Of a stretch of 64,000 nt of DNA, positions 6,706 to 63,629 are shown one piece after another. The notes beneath the pieces were generated by a model that saw nothing but the letters and a program-made list of their open reading frames with translations, was not told the origin of the DNA and ran no database searches. Origin of the DNA: Escherichia coli (GTDB lineage: Bacteria; Pseudomonadota; Gammaproteobacteria; Enterobacterales; Enterobacteriaceae). How positions within the stretch are numbered: the stretch's first letter is position 1; every line of letters starts with the position of its first letter. The stretch lies in assembly GCF_003334405.1 (NCBI RefSeq), contig NZ_QOWM01000004.1; one strand, written 5' to 3'. The position numbers were made by a program, and so were the translations under genes.

Positions 6706-8364
6706 ATGATTCTTGAGCGCGTTGAAATTGTGGGTTTTCGCGGTATCAACCGTTTGTCGTTGATGCTGGAACAAAACAACGTCCTGATTGGGGAGAACGC
6801 GTGGGGTAAATCCAGCTTGCTGGACGCCTTAACTCTGCTGCTATCGCCAGAATCAGATCTCTACCATTTTGAGCGCGACGATTTCTGGTTCCCGCCGGGA
6901 GATATCAACGGGCGAGAACATCATCTGCATATTATTTTGACCTTCCGCGAATCGCTGCCAGGCCGACATCGGGTTCGCCGTTATCGGCCGCTGGAAGCGT
7001 GCTGGACGCCATGCACCGATGGCTATCACCGTATTTTTTATCGTCTGGAAGGGGAGAGTGCGGAAGACGGCAGCGTGATGACACTGCGCAGTTTTCTCGA
7101 TAAAGACGGACATCCGATTGATGTCGAGGATATTAACGATCAGGCACGCCATCTGGTGCGTTTAATGCCGGTGCTGCGCTTGCGTGATGCCCGTTTTATG
7201 CGCCGTATTCGTAACGGCACGGTGCCAAATGTCCCTAATGTGGAAGTCACCGCGCGCCAGCTCGATTTCCTCGCCCGTGAGTTATCCTCACATCCGCAAA
7301 ATCTCTCTGATGGGCAGATTCGTCAGGGACTTTCCGCAATGGTACAGCTGCTTGAGCATTATTTCTCTGAGCAGGGGGCCGGACAGGCGCGATATCGTTT
7401 AATGCGGCGGCGAGCCAGCAATGAGCAACGAAGCTGGCGCTATCTGGATATCATCAACCGGATGATTGACCGACCTGGTGGGCGCTCGTATCGGGTTATT
7501 TTGCTCGGCCTATTTGCTACTTTGTTGCAGGCAAAAGGCACATTGCGACTGGATAAAGACGCCCGTCCATTGTTGCTGATCGAAGATCCAGAAACCCGTT
7601 TACACCCCATTATGCTTTCAGTTGCCTGGCATCTGTTGAATCTTCTGCCATTGCAGCGCATTGCCACCACCAACTCGGGTGAGTTGCTTTCGTTAACGCC
7701 GGTAGAGCATGTTTGCCGACTGGTACGTGAGTCCTCGCGCGTTGCCGCCTGGCGTCTGGGGCCGAGTGGCTTGAGTACCGAAGATAGCCGACGCATATCC
7801 TTTCACATTCGTTTTAACCGTCCGTCATCGCTGTTTGCACGCTGCTGGTTGCTGGTGGAAGGGGAAACGGAAACCTGGGTTATCAATGAACTGGCGCGTC
7901 AGTGCGGACATCATTTTGATGCCGAAGGGATCAAGGTCATTGAGTTTGCCCAGTCCGGGCTAAAGCCACTGGTTAAATTTGCCCGCCGAATGGGGATTGA
8001 ATGGCATGTACTGGTCGATGGCGATGAAGCAGGGAAGAAATATGCCGCTACGGTACGCAGCCTGTTGAATAACGATCGGGAAGCCGAACGAGAACATTTA
8101 ACGGCGTTACCGGCGCTGGATATGGAACATTTTATGTATCGCCAGGGATTTTCCGATGTGTTCCACCGCATGGCGCAAATCCCGGAAAATGTACCGATGA
8201 ATCTACGCAAAATTATCTCGAAAGCGATCCATCGCTCTTCCAAACCCGATCTTGCCATTGAAGTGGCAATGGAGGCAGGACGTCGTGGTGTGGACTCCGT
8301 ACCGACGCTGCTGAAAAAAATGTTCTCACGCGTGCTGTGGCTGGCGCGCGGTCGCGCGGATTAA
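6706..8364 (+). CDS. ybjD: OLD-family ATP-dependent nuclease homologue (N-terminal ABC-type ATPase, C-terminal TOPRIM)
   Basis: 552-aa ORF; P-loop GENAWGKSSLLDA near the N-terminus; TOPRIM-like acidic motifs CWLLVEGETE and HVLVDGDEAG in the C-terminal third. Confidence 0.85.
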   Translation: MILERVEIVGFRGINRLSLMLEQNNVLIGENAWGKSSLLDALTLLLSPESDLYHFERDDFWFPPGDINGREHHLHIILTFRESLPGRHRVRRYRPLEACWTPCTDGYHRIFYRLEGESAEDGSVMTLRSFLDKDGHPIDVEDINDQARHLVRLMPVLRLRDARFMRRIRNGTVPNVPNVEVTARQLDFLARELSSHPQNLSDGQIRQGLSAMVQLLEHYFSEQGAGQARYRLMRRRASNEQRSWRYLDIINRMIDRPGGRSYRVILLGLFATLLQAKGTLRLDKDARPLLLIEDPETRLHPIMLSVAWHLLNLLPLQRIATTNSGELLSLTPVEHVCRLVRESSRVAAWRLGPSGLSTEDSRRISFHIRFNRPSSLFARCWLLVEGETETWVINELARQCGHHFDAEGIKVIEFAQSGLKPLVKFARRMGIEWHVLVDGDEAGKKYAATVRSLLNNDREAEREHLTALPALDMEHFMYRQGFSDVFHRMAQIPENVPMNLRKIISKAIHRSSKPDLAIEVAMEAGRRGVDSVPTLLKKMFSRVLWLARGRAD

Positions 8365-9353
8365 CCGCGAAACATCGTGGCCATTTGTGGCTGAATAGCG
8401 TCGAGCATCTCATAGCGCCGACGGTATTCAGCCCGTTTTTTACTGGCGATTTCGGCAATCTCTTTTCGTGCTATCTGTGCTGGAAGGCGGTAATGGCGTT
8501 CAGCATCACATACGCCGCCAACCGATTCCCAGAAAGCGTTGTAATCAGCGTGGATCTTGCCTTCTTTATCGCGATAACGCAGGCTGCGGTAAATATGCGT
8601 TTCATTGCTGACGGCAATAATCTGCTCTACCTGCAAACGTTGGGCAAACAGACAGGCCGCTTCCATCACGAGGCGTTTGGGAAATAGCCCGTGGCAGGCT
8701 TTCGTCGCATTCTGGATTTCCTGATGTGGAATTTCCCATTTTGCGCCTTGCAGTCCGCCAATAAACATCGTTCTTTTCCCCTGATATTCACACAGGGTAA
8801 ACGTGATCTCTGCCAGAGGAATACCTTCGCTGTTGCGGAACAGGATTGTGCTGTCACCTTCTTTATCCATTGAGATCATCATGGTCAGCTCAAGCGTGAA
8901 CTGCTCGCCGTTTTTGCCTTCCAGCTTCGCCAGTTGCAGCCCGGGGGTATTCAAATATAAGCTGAATTCTTCCGCCGACATACATTCGCGGAGTAACGCA
9001 TAATGGTAACGTAACGCCTCCAGCAATTGCTTACGGCTAAGATTCGCCGCAAGGTAAGGGCGATGCAGACGCACAGGCAGTCGCGGCTGGCGCGTTAACA
9101 ATACATTGAGATTAGGCCAGTGGGAAAGTTCGTTCATCCACTCAACGCTTAAACGCGGCATAATCAACGAGCGCAGCAAAAATTTCTGGCGAAAACTACG
9201 GCGATGCCAGAATTTACCCGGCCGACACTGTCCACGTGCCAGACTAAGAAAAAGTGACAGGCTGCTGAGAGATTCAGATGGCGTAAAGGTCCGTTCAGTT
9301 AGCTGCGACATATTCATGAAATCAATGGTTATACATGGCGTCGATTTCACCAT
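8361..9353 (-). CDS. ybjX: VirK/DUF535-family protein
   Basis: 330-aa ORF convergent with ybjD and overlapping its stop by 4 bp; divergent from macA; identified from position and remembered annotation. Confidence 0.75.
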   Translation of the reverse strand: MVKSTPCITIDFMNMSQLTERTFTPSESLSSLSLFLSLARGQCRPGKFWHRRSFRQKFLLRSLIMPRLSVEWMNELSHWPNLNVLLTRQPRLPVRLHRPYLAANLSRKQLLEALRYHYALLRECMSAEEFSLYLNTPGLQLAKLEGKNGEQFTLELTMMISMDKEGDSTILFRNSEGIPLAEITFTLCEYQGKRTMFIGGLQGAKWEIPHQEIQNATKACHGLFPKRLVMEAACLFAQRLQVEQIIAVSNETHIYRSLRYRDKEGKIHADYNAFWESVGGVCDAERHYRLPAQIARKEIAEIASKKRAEYRRRYEMLDAIQPQMATMFRG

Positions 9354-15985: not shown

Positions 15986-16073
15986 GTTCACTGCCGTACA
16001 GGCAGCTTAGAAATTCACAGGTAACATACTCCACCCGCCCACCATGTTCACTGCCGTACAGACAGATAAAATG
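15986..16073 (+). CRISPR. Orphan type I-F CRISPR remnant: two 28-bp repeats (second degenerate) flanking one 32-bp spacer; no cas genes in the window
   Basis: Repeat 1 at 15986-16013 is GTTCACTGCCGTACAGGCAGCTTAGAAA, the type I-F repeat as I recall it; spacer 16014-16045 is ttcacaggtaacatactccacccgcccaccat; repeat 2 at 16046-16073 is gttcactgccgtacagacagataaaatg; location between clpA and serW fits the known CRISPR3/4 site. Confidence 0.8.
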
Positions 16074-23456: not shown

Positions 23457-26400
23457 TTGAGCCAGGAATACACTGAAGACAAAGAAGTCACATTGACAAA
23501 GTTAAGTAGCGGCCGCCGCCTTCTGGAGGCGTTGCTGATCCTTATTGTCCTGTTTGCCGTCTGGTTGATGGCTGCCTTACTAAGCTTTAACCCTTCGGAC
23601 CCCAGCTGGTCGCAAACGGCCTGGCATGAACCTATCCATAATTTAGGTGGGATGCCCGGTGCGTGGTTGGCAGATACGCTGTTCTTTATTTTTGGCGTGA
23701 TGGCTTACACCATTCCCGTCATTATTGTCGGCGGTTGTTGGTTTGCCTGGCGTCATCAGTCCAGCGACGAATACATTGATTATTTTGCCGTTTCGCTACG
23801 CATCATTGGCGTTTTGGCGCTCATCCTTACCTCCTGTGGTCTGGCGGCAATCAACGCTGACGATATCTGGTATTTTGCCTCCGGTGGCGTCATTGGCAGC
23901 TTACTAAGCACTACGCTACAACCACTGCTACACAGTAGCGGGGGAACTATTGCGCTGCTCTGCGTTTGGGCAGCGGGCCTGACGTTGTTCACCGGTTGGT
24001 CATGGGTGACCATTGCTGAAAAACTCGGCGGCTGGATTTTAAACATTCTCACCTTCGCCAGTAATCGTACCCGTCGCGATGATACCTGGGTCGATGAAGA
24101 TGAGTATGAAGACGACGAAGAGTATGAAGATGAAAATCACGGCAAACAGCATGAATCACGCCGTGCCCGTATTCTTCGCGGCGCGCTAGCGCGTCGTAAA
24201 CGGTTGGCGGAAAAATTCATTAATCCGATGGGGCGGCAAACAGACGCTGCGTTGTTCTCCGGTAAGCGGATGGATGATGACGAAGAGATTACCTACACTG
24301 CACGCGGTGTGGCTGCCGACCCGGACGACGTCCTATTTTCGGGCAATCGTGCAACGCAGCCAGAATATGACGAATACGATCCATTATTAAACGGTGCGCC
24401 AATTACCGAACCTGTCGCTGTAGCAGCTGCTGCTACCACGGCGACACAAAGCTGGGCTGCGCCGGTTGAACCTGTGACTCAGACGCCGCCTGTTGCCTCT
24501 GTTGATGTTCCACCTGCGCAACCTACAGTAGCCTGGCAGCCTGTACCGGGTCCACAAACGGGAGAGCCGGTTATTGCTCCTGCACCGGAAGGTTACCCAC
24601 AGCAGTCACAATATGCGCAGCCTGCAGTGCAATATAATGAGCCGCTGCAACAACCAGTACAGCCGCAGCAGCCGTATTATGCACCTGCAGCTGAACAACC
24701 TGCGCAACAGCCGTATTATGCCCCTGCGCCAGAACAACCGGTGGCAGGTAACGCCTGGCAAGCCGAAGAGCAGCAATCCACTTTTGCTCCACAGTCTACA
24801 TACCAGACTGAGCAAACTTATCAGCAGCCAGCCGCTCAGGAGCCGTTGTACCAACAGCCGCAACCCGTTGAACAGCAGCCTGTTGTGGAGCCTGAACCCG
24901 TTGTAGAAGAGACAAAACCCGCGCGTCCGCCGCTTTACTACTTTGAAGAAGTTGAAGAGAAGCGAGCCCGTGAACGTGAACAACTTGCGGCCTGGTATCA
25001 ACCGATTCCAGAACCGGTTAAAGAACCAGAACCGATCAAATCTTCGCTGAAAGCACCTTCTGTTGCAGCAGTACCTCCAGTAGAAGCCGCTGCCGCTGTT
25101 TCCCCGCTGGCATCTGGCGTGAAAAAAGCGACACTGGCGACGGGGGCTGCCGCAACCGTTGCCGCGCCAGTCTTCAGTCTGGCAAATAGCGGTGGACCGC
25201 GTCCTCAGGTCAAAGAGGGGATTGGTCCGCAGTTGCCACGACCGAAACGTATCCGCGTGCCAACTCGTCGTGAACTGGCGTCTTACGGTATTAAGCTGCC
25301 CTCACAGCGTGCGGCGGAAGAAAAAGCCCGTGAAGCCCAGCGCAATCAGTACGATTCTGGCGATCAGTACAACGATGATGAAATCGATGCGATGCAGCAG
25401 GATGAACTGGCACGTCAGTTCGCCCAGACACAGCAGCAACGCTATGGCGAACAGTATCAACATGATGTGCCCGTAAACGCAGAAGATGCAGATGCTGCGG
25501 CAGAGGCTGAACTGGCTCGTCAGTTTGCGCAAACTCAACAACAACGTTATTCCGGCGAACAACCGGCTGGGGCGAATCCGTTCTCGCTGGATGATTTTGA
25601 ATTTTCGCCAATGAAAGCGTTGCTGGATGATGGTCCACACGAACCGTTGTTTACGCCAATTGTTGAACCTGTACAGCAGCCGCAACAACCGGTTGCACCG
25701 CAGCAGCAATATCAGCAGCCGCAACAACCAGTTCCGCCGCAGCCGCAGTATCAGCAGCCACAACAGCCGGTTGCGCCGCAGCCACAATATCAGCAGCCGC
25801 AACAACCGGTTGCGCCACAGCAGCAATATCAGCAGCCGCAACAACCGGTTGCGCCGCAGCAGCAGTATCAGCAGCCACAACAGCCAGTTGCGCCACAACC
25901 GCAGGATACCCTGCTTCATCCGCTGTTGATGCGTAATGGCGACAGCCGTCCGTTGCATAAACCGACGACGCCGCTGCCTTCTCTGGATTTGCTGACACCG
26001 CCGCCGAGCGAAGTGGAGCCGGTAGATACCTTTGCGCTTGAACAAATGGCTCGCCTGGTGGAAGCGCGTCTGGCTGATTTCCGTATTAAAGCCGATGTCG
26101 TCAATTACTCTCCGGGGCCGGTTATCACTCGCTTTGAATTGAACCTGGCACCGGGCGTAAAAGCGGCGCGCATTTCTAACTTGTCACGGGACCTTGCCCG
26201 TTCACTTTCGACGGTGGCGGTGCGTGTCGTTGAAGTTATTCCTGGCAAACCCTATGTAGGTCTGGAGTTACCGAATAAAAAACGACAAACCGTTTATCTG
26301 CGCGAAGTTTTGGATAACGCCAAATTCCGCGATAATCCGTCGCCATTAACCGTGGTGCTGGGTAAAGATATCGCCGGTGAGCCGGTGGTTGCCGATCTGG

Positions 26401-30953: not shown

Positions 30954-30973
30954 TACCCAATTTTTCTGAATCT

Positions 30974-30999
30974 AAAAAGCGCCTGCGGGCGCTTTTTTT
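30974..30999 (+). terminator. Rho-independent terminator downstream of serS
   Basis: agcgcc-tgcg-ggcgct hairpin followed by T7. Confidence 0.75.
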
Positions 31000-31191
31000 G
31001 TCTCCCTTTGATACCGAACAATAATTACTCCTCACTTACACGTAATACTACTTTCGAGTGAAAATCTACCTATCTCTTTGATTTTCAAATTATTCGATGT
31101 ATACAAGCCTATATAGCGAACTGCTATAGAAATAATTACACAATACGGTTTGTTACTGGAATCAATCGTGAGCAAGCTTGAGTGAGCCATT

Positions 31192-61979: not shown

Positions 61980-62873
61980 ATGGAACAGCTGCGTGCCGAA
62001 TTAAGCCATTTACTGGGCGAAAAACTCAGTCGTATTGAGTGCGTCAATGAAAAAGCGGATACGGCGTTGTGGGCTTTGTATGACAGCCAGGGAAACCCAA
62101 TGCCGTTAATGGCAAGAAGCTTTAGTACGCCCGGAAAAGCCCGACAACTGGCATGGAAAACCACCATGCTGGCAAGAAGTGGGACTGTCCGTATGCCGAC
62201 TATTTATGGTGTGATGACGCATGAAGAACACCCCGGCCCCGATGTCCTGCTACTGGAGCGGATGCGTGGTGTTTCGGTGGAGGCACCAGCCCGAACACCA
62301 GAACGCTGGGAACAACTCAAAGACCAAATCGTTGAAGCCTTACTGGCCTGGCACCGTCAGGACAGTCGCGGTTGCGTCGGCGCGGTCGACAATACTCAGG
62401 AAAATTTCTGGCCCTCATGGTACCGGCAACATGTTGAAGTGCTATGGACCACGCTCAATCAGTTCAATAACACCGGTCTGACGATGCAGGATAAGCGGAT
62501 CCTGTTTCGCACTCGCGAATGTCTCCCGGCATTATTTGAAGGCTTTAACGACAATTGTGTGCTGATTCACGGTAACTTCTGTTTACGCAGCATGTTGAAA
62601 GATTCGCGCAGCGATCAGTTACTGGCGATGGTCGGGCCGGGACTAATGCTTTGGGCACCGCGAGAATACGAACTGTTCCGACTAATGGATAATTCTCTGG
62701 CGGAAGATTTGCTCTGGAGTTACCTGCAACGCGCGCCAGTGGCGGAGTCGTTCATCTGGCGGCGTTGGTTGTATGTGTTATGGGATGAAGTTGCGCAACT
62801 GGTTAATACCGGACGATTTAGTCGGCGCAACTTCGATCTGGCATCAAAATCACTCTTGCCGTGGCTCGCCTGA
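61980..62873 (+). CDS. ycbJ: Putative kinase-like protein (phosphotransferase fold)
   Basis: 297-aa ORF; position after kdsB; convergent overlap with elyC. Confidence 0.78.
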   Translation: MEQLRAELSHLLGEKLSRIECVNEKADTALWALYDSQGNPMPLMARSFSTPGKARQLAWKTTMLARSGTVRMPTIYGVMTHEEHPGPDVLLLERMRGVSVEAPARTPERWEQLKDQIVEALLAWHRQDSRGCVGAVDNTQENFWPSWYRQHVEVLWTTLNQFNNTGLTMQDKRILFRTRECLPALFEGFNDNCVLIHGNFCLRSMLKDSRSDQLLAMVGPGLMLWAPREYELFRLMDNSLAEDLLWSYLQRAPVAESFIWRRWLYVLWDEVAQLVNTGRFSRRNFDLASKSLLPWLA

Positions 62874-63629
62874 CGAACCTTTTAGCCACTGCCAGATACG
62901 GCCAAGCGTTTCATAGCCAACACGATCGCTATGCATCAACCAGACCGGAGAAGGGATTGCCCGTTCCCACGGGTTAAGCGGCGAGTCGATGGCCAACTGA
63001 TTCGCCGGGGCTGGTAGCGGATTTAACCCTTCCTGCTGAAAAAAGATCATCGCCCGCGGCAGATGTGATGCGGAGGTCACCAGCAGGAAAGGGGCGTCAC
63101 CAATCGCCTGTTTCACTGCTGCAGCTTCTTCTTCGGTATCTTTTGGCAAATCCAGGGTGATAATTTGCTCGCGCGGCACGCCCAGCGATTGCGCAACTCT
63201 GGCACCTACTTCCGCTGTACTCACCGTATTGGTTTTTGCTACGCCTCCCGTGAAGATCAGTTTTGATCCCGGATTTTCGCGCCATAAGCGAATACCTTCA
63301 TTCAGGCGTGGCAGACTGTTATTGATTAAATTAGAGCTCGGTGCCCACTGCGGGTTCCAGGTATAACCACCTCCGAGCACCACGATATAGTCCACTTTTT
63401 GCGAATTATTCCATGTCGGATAGGTGCTTTCGATGGGACGCAGCAGGCGGTCGGCTACCGGTTGCAAACTCAATAACAAGAGCGCCAGCCACCCAATGCT
63501 AATAAAAATCTTCCCGGTTTTTTGAAAACGGCTAAACCACAGCAGCGCCAGGCCAGCGCCAATAATCAACAACATCAGCGGAAGTGGCAGCAACATATTG
63601 CCAATCACTTTTTTCAGTGTAAAAAGCAT
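62850..63629 (-). CDS. elyC: Envelope biogenesis factor ElyC (DUF218)
   Basis: 259-aa ORF with N-terminal transmembrane helix (MLFTLKKVIGNMLLPLPLMLLIIGAGLALLWF). Confidence 0.8.
   Translation of the reverse strand: MLFTLKKVIGNMLLPLPLMLLIIGAGLALLWFSRFQKTGKIFISIGWLALLLLSLQPVADRLLRPIESTYPTWNNSQKVDYIVVLGGGYTWNPQWAPSSNLINNSLPRLNEGIRLWRENPGSKLIFTGGVAKTNTVSTAEVGARVAQSLGVPREQIITLDLPKDTEEEAAAVKQAIGDAPFLLVTSASHLPRAMIFFQQEGLNPLPAPANQLAIDSPLNPWERAIPSPVWLMHSDRVGYETLGRIWQWLKGSSGEPRQE

What the first reader, a model, noticed from the sequence alone, without database searches (positions are those of the whole stretch)
8361..8364. Convergent gene-end overlaps (ybjD/ybjX and ycbJ/elyC)
ybjD and ybjX overlap tail-to-tail by 4 bp, and ycbJ and elyC by 24 bp (62850-62873). 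There is no room for terminators between them, so there is potential for transcriptional interference or antisense effects at these convergent pairs.
Basis: seen in the sequence. Interest (0 to 1): 0.12.

Follow-up and report, generated by a model that had tools for sequence, protein, structure and literature searches.

The report
Ordinary tail-to-tail gene overlaps
Two pairs of facing E. coli genes really do share their last 4 and 24 bases, but this is a common, old and already catalogued arrangement in which each transcript simply ends inside its neighbour, so it is ordinary.

Summary
ybjD (6706-8364, +) and ybjX (8361-9317, -) share a 4-bp TTAA made of two interlocked TAA stops. ycbJ (61980-62873, +) and elyC (62850-63629, -) share 24 bp. 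RefSeq annotation of identical E. coli DNA gives the same ends. Both overlaps are old. All 11 Escherichia, Citrobacter and other enterobacterial loci examined keep the 4-bp overlap (TTAA, once CTAG). The 24-bp overlap is kept in five other species of five genera and is 21 bp in Salmonella. Neither is unusual: E. coli was reported to have 58 convergent overlaps, and 4-nt YTAR overlaps are their modal class. "No room for terminators" is literally true, but termination happens inside the partner gene. ybjD has a stable hairpin plus T6 within the last codons of ybjX. Published bicyclomycin data place Rho-dependent termination regions antisense within ybjD and within ycbJ. Both pairs are already listed among 165 convergent "excludons" of MG1655 (NAR 2025), and the ycbJ/elyC overlap is known to confound the ycbJ deletion mutant. 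Regulatory interference remains untested. The overlapped ElyC tail is a lineage-specific 8-residue extension, and 28 of 5426 E. coli genomes lose it through a TAG. Verdict: real, already known, low interest.

The parts
6706..8364 (+). ybjD CDS (552 aa; class 1 OLD-family ATPase/nuclease), stop TAA at 8362-8364
   Evidence: function from PMC13261556
8361..9317 (-). ybjX CDS (VirK/YbjX family; 318 aa with the PGAP start; MG1655 annotates the start at 9353), stop TAA at 8363..8361
   Evidence: start-codon issue from PMC12562796
8361..8364 (.). TTAA: two interlocked stop codons, the 4-bp tail-to-tail overlap (phase 123:213)
   Evidence: kept in 11 of 11 related loci, 10 as TTAA and 1 as CTAG
8389..8441 (+). 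Candidate intrinsic terminator of ybjD embedded in the last ~26 codons of ybjX: hairpin 8389-8433, 2-nt spacer, T6 at 8436-8441
   Evidence: dG -26.7 kcal/mol, z -4.84; consensus fold retained with one covarying pair; T-run interrupted in Citrobacter; no Term-seq 3' end reported
7479..8360 (-). ybjX read-through RNA antisense to the 3' 885 nt of ybjD, ending in a published Rho termination region (MG1655 917246, Rho score 15.9); C>G-rich on this strand
   Evidence: PMC7815308 supp. 2; coordinate mapping; C/G up to 2.0 at +280..+520
61980..62873 (+). ycbJ CDS (297 aa, putative phosphotransferase), stop TGA at 62871-62873; published Rho termination region inside it at about 62348
   Evidence: PMC7815308 supp. 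2
62850..63629 (-). elyC CDS (259 aa, envelope biogenesis factor), stop TGA at 62852..62850
62850..62873 (.). 24-bp tail-to-tail overlap, codons in register (phase 123:321); each TGA stop is read as TCA (Ser) by the other gene. It encodes the last 7 residues (SGEPRQE) of the 8-residue ElyC tail SSGEPRQE, and YcbJ SLLPWLA
   Evidence: kept as 24 bp in 5 other species of 5 genera, 21 bp in Salmonella
62874..62876 (-). elyC codon 252 (TCG); it is TAG in a rare allele, which gives a 251-aa ElyC abutting ycbJ with no overlap
   Evidence: 28 of 5426 complete E. coli genomes
62787..62834 (.). Perfect 10-bp inverted repeat (GAAGTTGCGC ... GCGCAACTTC) in the ycbJ 3' coding region, 16-63 nt past the elyC stop; no U-tract; not conserved outside Escherichia
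   Evidence: z about -4; alignment

Best explanation
Both junctions are ordinary, ancient tail-to-tail overlaps of real genes. They were produced by drift of stop codons and are not a dedicated device. At ybjD/ybjX the two stops interlock in a YTAR tetramer. Transitions at its outer bases keep both stops, and any change in the central TA destroys both at once, so the arrangement is effectively frozen. At ycbJ/elyC, ElyC carries a lineage-specific 8-residue C-terminal extension that runs into the end of ycbJ until the reverse complement of a YcbJ serine codon supplies a TGA. With no intergenic DNA, each transcript must end inside the partner gene. ybjD probably ends at an embedded hairpin plus U-tract. 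ybjX and the ycbJ-strand transcript end by Rho-dependent termination on the untranslated, C-rich antisense RNA; the same is inferred for elyC. The 3' ends of the mRNAs therefore overlap, which is why both pairs appear in the published excludon catalogue. Shown: the overlaps, their conservation, the hairpin, the C>G bias, and (published) the bicyclomycin-sensitive termination regions and RNA-seq overlap. Inferred: the terminator assignment for ybjD, Rho termination for elyC, and the absence of a selected regulatory role.
For: Gene ends and annotation. The 4-bp overlap is kept in 11 of 11 loci from Escherichia, Citrobacter and two unclassified Enterobacteriaceae whose YbjX is only 48% identical, with one TTAA-to-CTAG switch. 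Losing the shared TA would extend YbjX by 150 aa and YbjD by 10 aa. The 24-bp overlap is kept in E. albertii, Citrobacter, Klebsiella, Enterobacter and Kosakonia and is 21 bp in Salmonella. In 116 distant ElyC representatives the projected C-terminus has its median at E. coli residue 253, and 81% end at or before 255. A rare TAG allele removes the tail. Embedded hairpin plus T6. C>G bias downstream of the stops. Rho termination regions at MG1655 917246(-) and 972120(+). Excludon listing. Frequency of convergent overlaps, the YTAR mode and the stop-codon-mutation origin.
Against: Adams et al. called no discrete Term-seq 3' end for any of the four genes, so neither the ybjD terminator nor the exact ends are experimentally fixed. 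The Rho regions are low resolution (800-nt windows), and the one on the ycbJ strand lies inside ycbJ rather than beyond it. Conservation of the overlaps across genera is also what a selected regulatory coupling would predict. The ybjD hairpin lies in conserved coding sequence, so its conservation is not independent evidence, and its T-run is broken in Citrobacter.
Confidence: 0.85

Rival explanations
1. Selected convergent excludons. The overlap is maintained because transcription of one gene represses the other, by RNA polymerase collision or by RNase III cleavage of the duplex. One example would be PhoPQ-induced ybjX transcription in low Mg2+ silencing the potentially toxic OLD nuclease gene ybjD.
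For: Both pairs are in the ExcludonFinder core set, present in at least 50% of 58 transcriptomes. In LB there were 299 reads antisense to ybjD upstream of the Rho region against 18 downstream. The overlaps are conserved across genera. ybjX is PhoPQ-activated. Chromosomal ybjD gives no phage phenotype whereas induced ybjD does, and it is cytotoxic at higher induction.
Against: There are no pair-specific data on reciprocal expression. Any two transcribed genes with overlapping CDSs qualify automatically as an excludon. Conservation is explained by the mutational trap of YTAR and by double coding constraint. A natural allele removes the elyC overlap in 28 genomes without any visible compensating change. 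The authors could not validate convergent excludons with p19 dsRNA capture.
Confidence: 0.1
2. Annotation artefact: one stop or reading frame of each pair is mis-called, and the true genes do not overlap.
For: The ybjX start is annotated inconsistently (9353 against 9317), which shows that annotation in this region is not perfect.
Against: Stop codons are fixed by the frame of long, conserved ORFs. YbjD (552 aa), YcbJ (297 aa) and ElyC (259 or 258 aa) keep their lengths and C-terminal sequences across genera. Independent annotations agree.
Confidence: 0.02
3. A shared bidirectional terminator hairpin centred on the junction (CGCGG-ATTAA-CCGCG at 8355-8369) stops both polymerases at the stop codons.
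For: A 5-bp stem around the TTAA folds on both strands in the window.
Against: There is no U-tract on either strand. The palindrome is absent from other E. coli and Escherichia sequences (for example GGGCAGATTAACCGCG in strain E69). No equivalent exists at ycbJ/elyC. Antisense reads extend about 885 nt beyond the junction.
Confidence: 0.03

Closest known systems
Short convergent (tail-to-tail) overlapping genes of prokaryotes, 4-nt YTAR class (Lillo and Krakauer 2007, PMC2174442)
   Same: Two real genes on opposite strands end in the tetramer TTAA, which holds both stops. It has the phase and length of the reported mode, and its origin is compatible with stop-codon mutation.
   Different: Nothing substantive. 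This pair is one more instance, and here it is shown to be conserved across at least three enterobacterial genera.
Convergent excludons of E. coli MG1655 (ExcludonFinder, NAR 2025, PMC12288877)
   Same: Both ybjD-ybjX and ycbJ-elyC are named in Table 1 of that paper as convergent pairs with overlapping transcripts. ycaM-ycaN from this window is listed too.
   Different: Classical excludons (Listeria) have a demonstrated reciprocal expression switch. For these two pairs only transcript overlap is documented.
Rho-dependent suppression of antisense read-through at gene ends (Adams et al. 2021, PMC7815308; stem-loop-protected 3' ends, Dar and Sorek 2018, PMC6061677)
   Same: Bicyclomycin-sensitive termination regions lie antisense to ybjD and within ycbJ. 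There is C>G bias on the untranslated strand, and hairpins without U-tracts lie near the elyC 3' end.
   Different: Exact termination points and rut sites are not mapped for these genes, and no stable Term-seq 3' ends were reported.
Intrinsic terminators embedded in the coding sequence of a convergent neighbour
   Same: The hairpin (dG -26.7 kcal/mol) plus T6 lies 25-77 nt past the ybjD stop, inside ybjX. Lillo and Krakauer found rho-independent terminators in 21 of 58 E. coli convergent overlaps.
   Different: There is a 2-nt spacer before the U-tract, a long 15-nt internal loop, and no experimental 3' end. The U-tract is formed by two Lys codons of ybjX and is degraded in Citrobacter.

Membership tests
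Convergent overlapping CDS pair, 4-nt YTAR class | Both ORFs are genuine protein-coding genes | tested here: met
   YbjD is 85-99% and YbjX 48-98% identical over full length in 11 loci; RefSeq annotations agree
Convergent overlapping CDS pair, 4-nt YTAR class | The two stop codons interlock in CTAA, TTAA, CTAG or TTAG | tested here: met
   TTAA at 8361-8364; TTAA or CTAG in all relatives
Convergent overlapping CDS pair (>4 nt), origin by stop-codon shift | The overlapped tail lies outside the conserved core of at least one protein | tested here: met
   Distant ElyC homologues end at a median position of E. coli residue 253; the 251-aa natural allele lacks the tail
Convergent excludon | Transcripts of the two genes overlap in vivo | not testable with these tools
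   Published only: Table 1 of PMC12288877 lists both pairs; antisense reads in ybjD in PMC7815308 supp. 2
Convergent excludon | Mutually exclusive or reciprocal expression of the two genes | not tested
   No pair-specific data were found in the papers read
Intrinsic (Rho-independent) terminator, for ybjD at 8389-8441 | Stable stem-loop followed at once by a U-rich tract | tested here: met
   dG -26.7 kcal/mol, z -4.84, then CG and U6. The stem is interrupted and there is a 2-nt spacer, so this is a moderate match
Intrinsic (Rho-independent) terminator, for ybjD at 8389-8441 | An RNA 3' end maps to the U-tract | tested here: inconclusive
   No 3' end for ybjD or ybjX in the Term-seq tables of PMC7815308; low expression could explain this
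Bidirectional intrinsic terminator | U-tract after the hairpin on both strands (A-tract upstream, T-tract downstream) | tested here: not met
   On the - strand the 8389-8433 hairpin is followed by CACAAAUGG; the junction hairpin has no U-tract on either strand
Rho-dependent terminator | Read-through increases when Rho is inhibited | not testable with these tools
   Published: Rho score 15.9 (p 7e-53) at MG1655 917246(-) and 5.5 (p 5e-12) at 972120(+)
Rho-dependent terminator | C-rich, G-poor untranslated RNA upstream of the termination zone | tested here: met
   C/G of 1.3-2.0 in 80-nt windows downstream of the ybjX, elyC and ycbJ stops. Antisense of coding DNA is often C-rich, so this is weakly specific

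The most novel reading that the evidence does not exclude
ybjX read-through is driven by PhoPQ in low Mg2+ and runs at least 885 nt antisense into ybjD. It might act as a condition-dependent silencer of the chromosomal class 1 OLD defence nuclease YbjD. That would explain why the native copy gives no phage phenotype while an induced copy does, and why the interlocked stops have persisted across genera.
Probability: 0.08. Interest if true: 0.35.

Novelty: already known. Interest (0 to 1): 0.08.

Why it matters
The finding matters mainly in practice. Because the coding ends are shared, deleting or tagging one gene can damage its neighbour: the ycbJ deletion mutant is reported to inactivate elyC (PMC12282094). 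C-terminal tags on any of the four genes would alter the partner's 3' end. The two junctions are clean examples of how stop-codon drift creates convergent overlaps and how a YTAR tetramer freezes them. They offer simple test cases for asking whether catalogued excludons have any regulatory effect. Nothing here changes current understanding.

Tried and rejected
1. Hairpin centred on the TTAA (CGCGG-ATTAA-CCGCG). It folds in the window but is absent from other Escherichia sequences and has no U-tract. Rejected as a terminator.
2. Perfect 10-bp inverted repeat in the ycbJ 3' region (z about -4). I considered it as a protective 3' stem-loop for elyC mRNA. It is not conserved in Salmonella or Klebsiella, so it stays a weak, E. 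coli-specific possibility.
3. Rfam scan of the whole window. Nothing at either junction.
4. Consensus promoter scan for an independent antisense promoter inside ybjD. None on the - strand, so read-through from ybjX is the simpler source of the antisense reads.
5. Term-seq tables of Adams et al. No 3' ends for any of the four genes.
6. Supplementary tables of ExcludonFinder and of Dar and Sorek are not held, so overlap lengths and per-gene Rho dependence from those studies could not be read.
7. The genome-contig scan with YbjX returned only 13 loci, because the 8-residue patterns did not match Salmonella, Klebsiella or other genera. Whether the ybjD/ybjX overlap extends beyond Escherichia, Citrobacter and two unnamed genera is untested. 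Two Massilia YbjX-like loci have no ybjD nearby.

Full report
**What is there**

The window is E. coli K-12-like chromosome. It is 99.97% identical to MG1655 positions about 909.77-973.77 kb, with 13 mismatches and one 5-nt indel.

Mechanical ORF calls give:
- ybjD at 6706..8364 (+) and ybjX at 8361..9353 (-)
- ycbJ at 61980..62873 (+) and elyC at 62850..63629 (-)

At the first junction the sequence at 8361-8364 is TTAA. TAA at 8362-8364 ends ybjD (...GRAD*). The reverse complement of 8361-8363 is the TAA that ends ybjX (...MFRG*).

At the second junction the sequence at 62850-62873 is TCACTCTTGCCGTGGCTCGCCTGA. ycbJ reads it as SLLPWLA*. On the other strand elyC ends ...SSGEPRQE*; the first of the two Ser codons (TCG, codon 252) lies just outside the overlap. 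The codons are in exact antiparallel register, so each TGA stop is a TCA serine codon for the other gene.

RefSeq annotation of an identical E. coli genome, and of MG1655, gives exactly these ends.

**Is it unusual?**

No. The MG1655 annotation shows seven convergent junctions in the window:

| Junction | Spacing |
|---|---|
| ybjD/ybjX | 4-bp overlap |
| ycbJ/elyC | 24-bp overlap |
| ycaM/ycaN | 0 bp (abutting, 38892/38893) |
| dmsC/ycaC | 34-bp gap |
| macB/cspD | 72-bp gap |
| ycaK/pflA | 81-bp gap |
| clpA/serW | 343-bp gap |

Lillo and Krakauer (PMC2174442) counted 58 convergent overlaps in E. coli. They showed that 4-nt overlaps built on CTAA, TTAA, CTAG or TTAG are a mode of the length distribution. 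They also found that convergent overlaps fit a stop-codon-mutation origin. Fifty-eight per 4.64 Mb is about 0.8 per 64 kb, so two in one window is unremarkable (my arithmetic gives P of about 0.19).

**Conservation of ybjD/ybjX**

A scan of one genome per species with YbjX returned 13 loci, and 11 of them carry ybjD convergent to ybjX. The 11 are E. coli, E. albertii, E. whittamii, other Escherichia species, three Citrobacter species and two unclassified Enterobacteriaceae. In the last two, YbjX is only 48% identical while YbjD is 85-86% identical.

In all 11 the stops interlock over 4 bp, ten times as TTAA and once as CTAG. Transitions at the outer bases of YTAR keep both stops. Any change in the central TA removes both at once, which in this window would extend YbjX by 150 residues and YbjD by 10. 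Persistence of the overlap is therefore what mutation and purifying selection on the proteins would produce, with no regulatory selection needed. That last step is inference.

**Conservation of ycbJ/elyC**

ElyC is 259 aa in Escherichia, Citrobacter, Klebsiella, Enterobacter, Kosakonia and Lelliottia, and 258 aa in Salmonella. In contigs from six of these species:
- The overlap is 24 bp in E. albertii, C. amalonaticus, K. grimontii, E. roggenkampii and K. cowanii.
- It is 21 bp in Salmonella.
- The flanking TCA and TGA triplets are invariant.

Among 116 distant ElyC representatives (under 60% identity, full-length alignments) the alignment to E. coli ElyC ends at residue 251 (median). The projected C-terminus falls at residue 253 (median). 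81% end at or before 255, and only 13% reach 259. The 8-residue tail SSGEPRQE is therefore a lineage-specific extension beyond the conserved DUF218 core, as the stop-codon-shift model predicts; all but its first serine is encoded by the overlap.

A rare natural allele turns codon 252 (TCG) into TAG. This gives a 251-aa ElyC whose stop abuts ycbJ with no overlap. It is annotated that way in strain 1190 and occurs in 28 of 5426 complete E. coli genomes.

**Where transcription ends**

There is indeed no intergenic DNA, but termination signals can lie inside the partner gene.

*ybjD.* On the + strand, 25 nt past the stop, a hairpin at 8389-8433 is followed by CG and T6 at 8436-8441, all inside the last 26 codons or so of ybjX.
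- It folds at -26.7 kcal/mol, against -13.3 for shuffles (z -4.84).
- The consensus fold of 12 sequences keeps it, with one compensatory pair.
- It lies in conserved coding sequence, and the T-run becomes CTTCTT in Citrobacter.
- On the - strand no U-tract follows, so it is not bidirectional.

*ybjX.* Adams et al. 2021 (PMC7815308, supplementary file 2) report a Rho termination region at MG1655 917246 (-), classified as antisense to ybjD.
- Reads without bicyclomycin: 299 upstream, 18 downstream.
- Reads with bicyclomycin: 568 upstream, 545 downstream.
- Rho score 15.9, p 7e-53.
- With ybjX ending at 918128, this lies 885 nt past the ybjX stop, at about window 7479.
- This strand is C-rich and G-poor (C/G up to 2.0) from about 200 to 560 nt past the stop.
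- No consensus promoter was found on that strand inside ybjD, so read-through from ybjX is the simplest source of these reads.

*ycbJ strand.* The same table gives a Rho region at 972120 (+), inside ycbJ at about window 62348, with Rho score 5.5.

*elyC.* The RNA beyond its stop is C-rich (C/G 1.4-1.9 over the first 160 nt), and no terminator-like site lies downstream. Rho termination is inferred here, not shown.

Adams et al. called no Term-seq 3' end for any of the four genes. Exact ends are therefore unknown. Dar and Sorek (PMC6061677) give the general model: diffuse Rho termination, then trimming back to a stem-loop.

**What is already known**

ExcludonFinder (NAR 2025, PMC12288877) lists both ybjD-ybjX and ycbJ-elyC, and also ycaM-ycaN, among the 165 convergent excludons of MG1655. 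Each is seen in at least half of 58 transcriptomes. That paper could not validate convergent excludons by p19 dsRNA capture and gives no pair-specific functional data.

A 2025 mSystems paper notes that ycbJ overlaps elyC in opposite orientation, so the ycbJ deletion inactivates elyC (PMC12282094). A 2026 micropublication notes the convergent ybjD/ybjX arrangement while characterising YbjD as a class 1 OLD protein (PMC13261556).

**Mechanism and alternatives**

My preferred reading (confidence about 0.85) is a neutral or frozen overlap with termination inside the neighbour. Transcript overlap is then an unavoidable by-product.

The main rival is a selected excludon (about 0.1). The most attractive version rests on three published points:
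- ybjX is PhoPQ-activated at low Mg2+ (PMC12562796).
- Chromosomal ybjD gives no phage phenotype, while an induced copy does.
- The induced copy is cytotoxic at higher levels.

Antisense read-through could therefore gate ybjD. Nothing I could compute discriminates between these readings, and the experiments that would are listed under next steps.

I reject an annotation artefact, because protein lengths and C-termini are conserved. I also reject a junction-centred bidirectional terminator: the 5-bp CGCGG/CCGCG stem is K-12-specific and has no U-tract.

**Verdict**

The overlaps are real, conserved, ordinary and already catalogued. Interest is low. The useful residue is practical, because genetic manipulation of one gene touches the other. 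The two junctions also make a tidy evolutionary illustration.

Noticed in passing
window 38892/38893: ycaM (+, ends 38892) and ycaN (-, ends 38893) abut with a 0-bp gap. The pair is also in the published excludon table.
   Followed up: partly
window 9317-9353 (-): The ybjX start is annotated inconsistently: MG1655 uses the ATG at 9353 (330 aa) and PGAP uses 9317 (318 aa). Primer extension in Shigella places the transcription start 18 bp downstream of the older ATG (PMC12562796), which favours the shorter form.
   Followed up: partly
window 6706-8364 (ybjD), in other strains: In NCM3722, WG1 and several CY strains ybjD is split by an IS1A insertion into two DUF2813 fragments. The OLD-family gene is therefore inactivated in some K-12 lineages.
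   Followed up: no
window 15986-16013 (+): A single Rfam CRISPR-DR4 match (50 bits) lies between clpA and serW. One isolated unit is not a CRISPR array; it is probably a palindromic extragenic element that resembles the repeat model.
   Followed up: no
window 30967-31101 (-): Full-length match to the enterobacterial sRNA family STnc130 (140 bits), in the region corresponding to the serS-dmsA interval of MG1655.
   Followed up: no
window about 25674-25933 (+), inside ftsK: Self-similarity at 87.5% with a 39-nt offset shows up as secondary BLAST hits. This indicates a tandem 13-codon repeat in ftsK.
   Followed up: no
window about 61872 (+) and 61920-61948 (+): A published Term-seq primary 3' end for kdsB (MG1655 971644) falls between kdsB and ycbJ. 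A promoter-like site (GTGACA-17-CATTAT) follows just upstream of ycbJ. Together these suggest that ycbJ is at least partly a separate transcription unit.
   Followed up: no
L007-L017 against the window (ybjD and ybjX): Across the same genomes YbjD stays 85-99% identical while its convergent neighbour YbjX falls to 48%. The two genes evolve at very unequal rates despite their interlocked stops.
   Followed up: no
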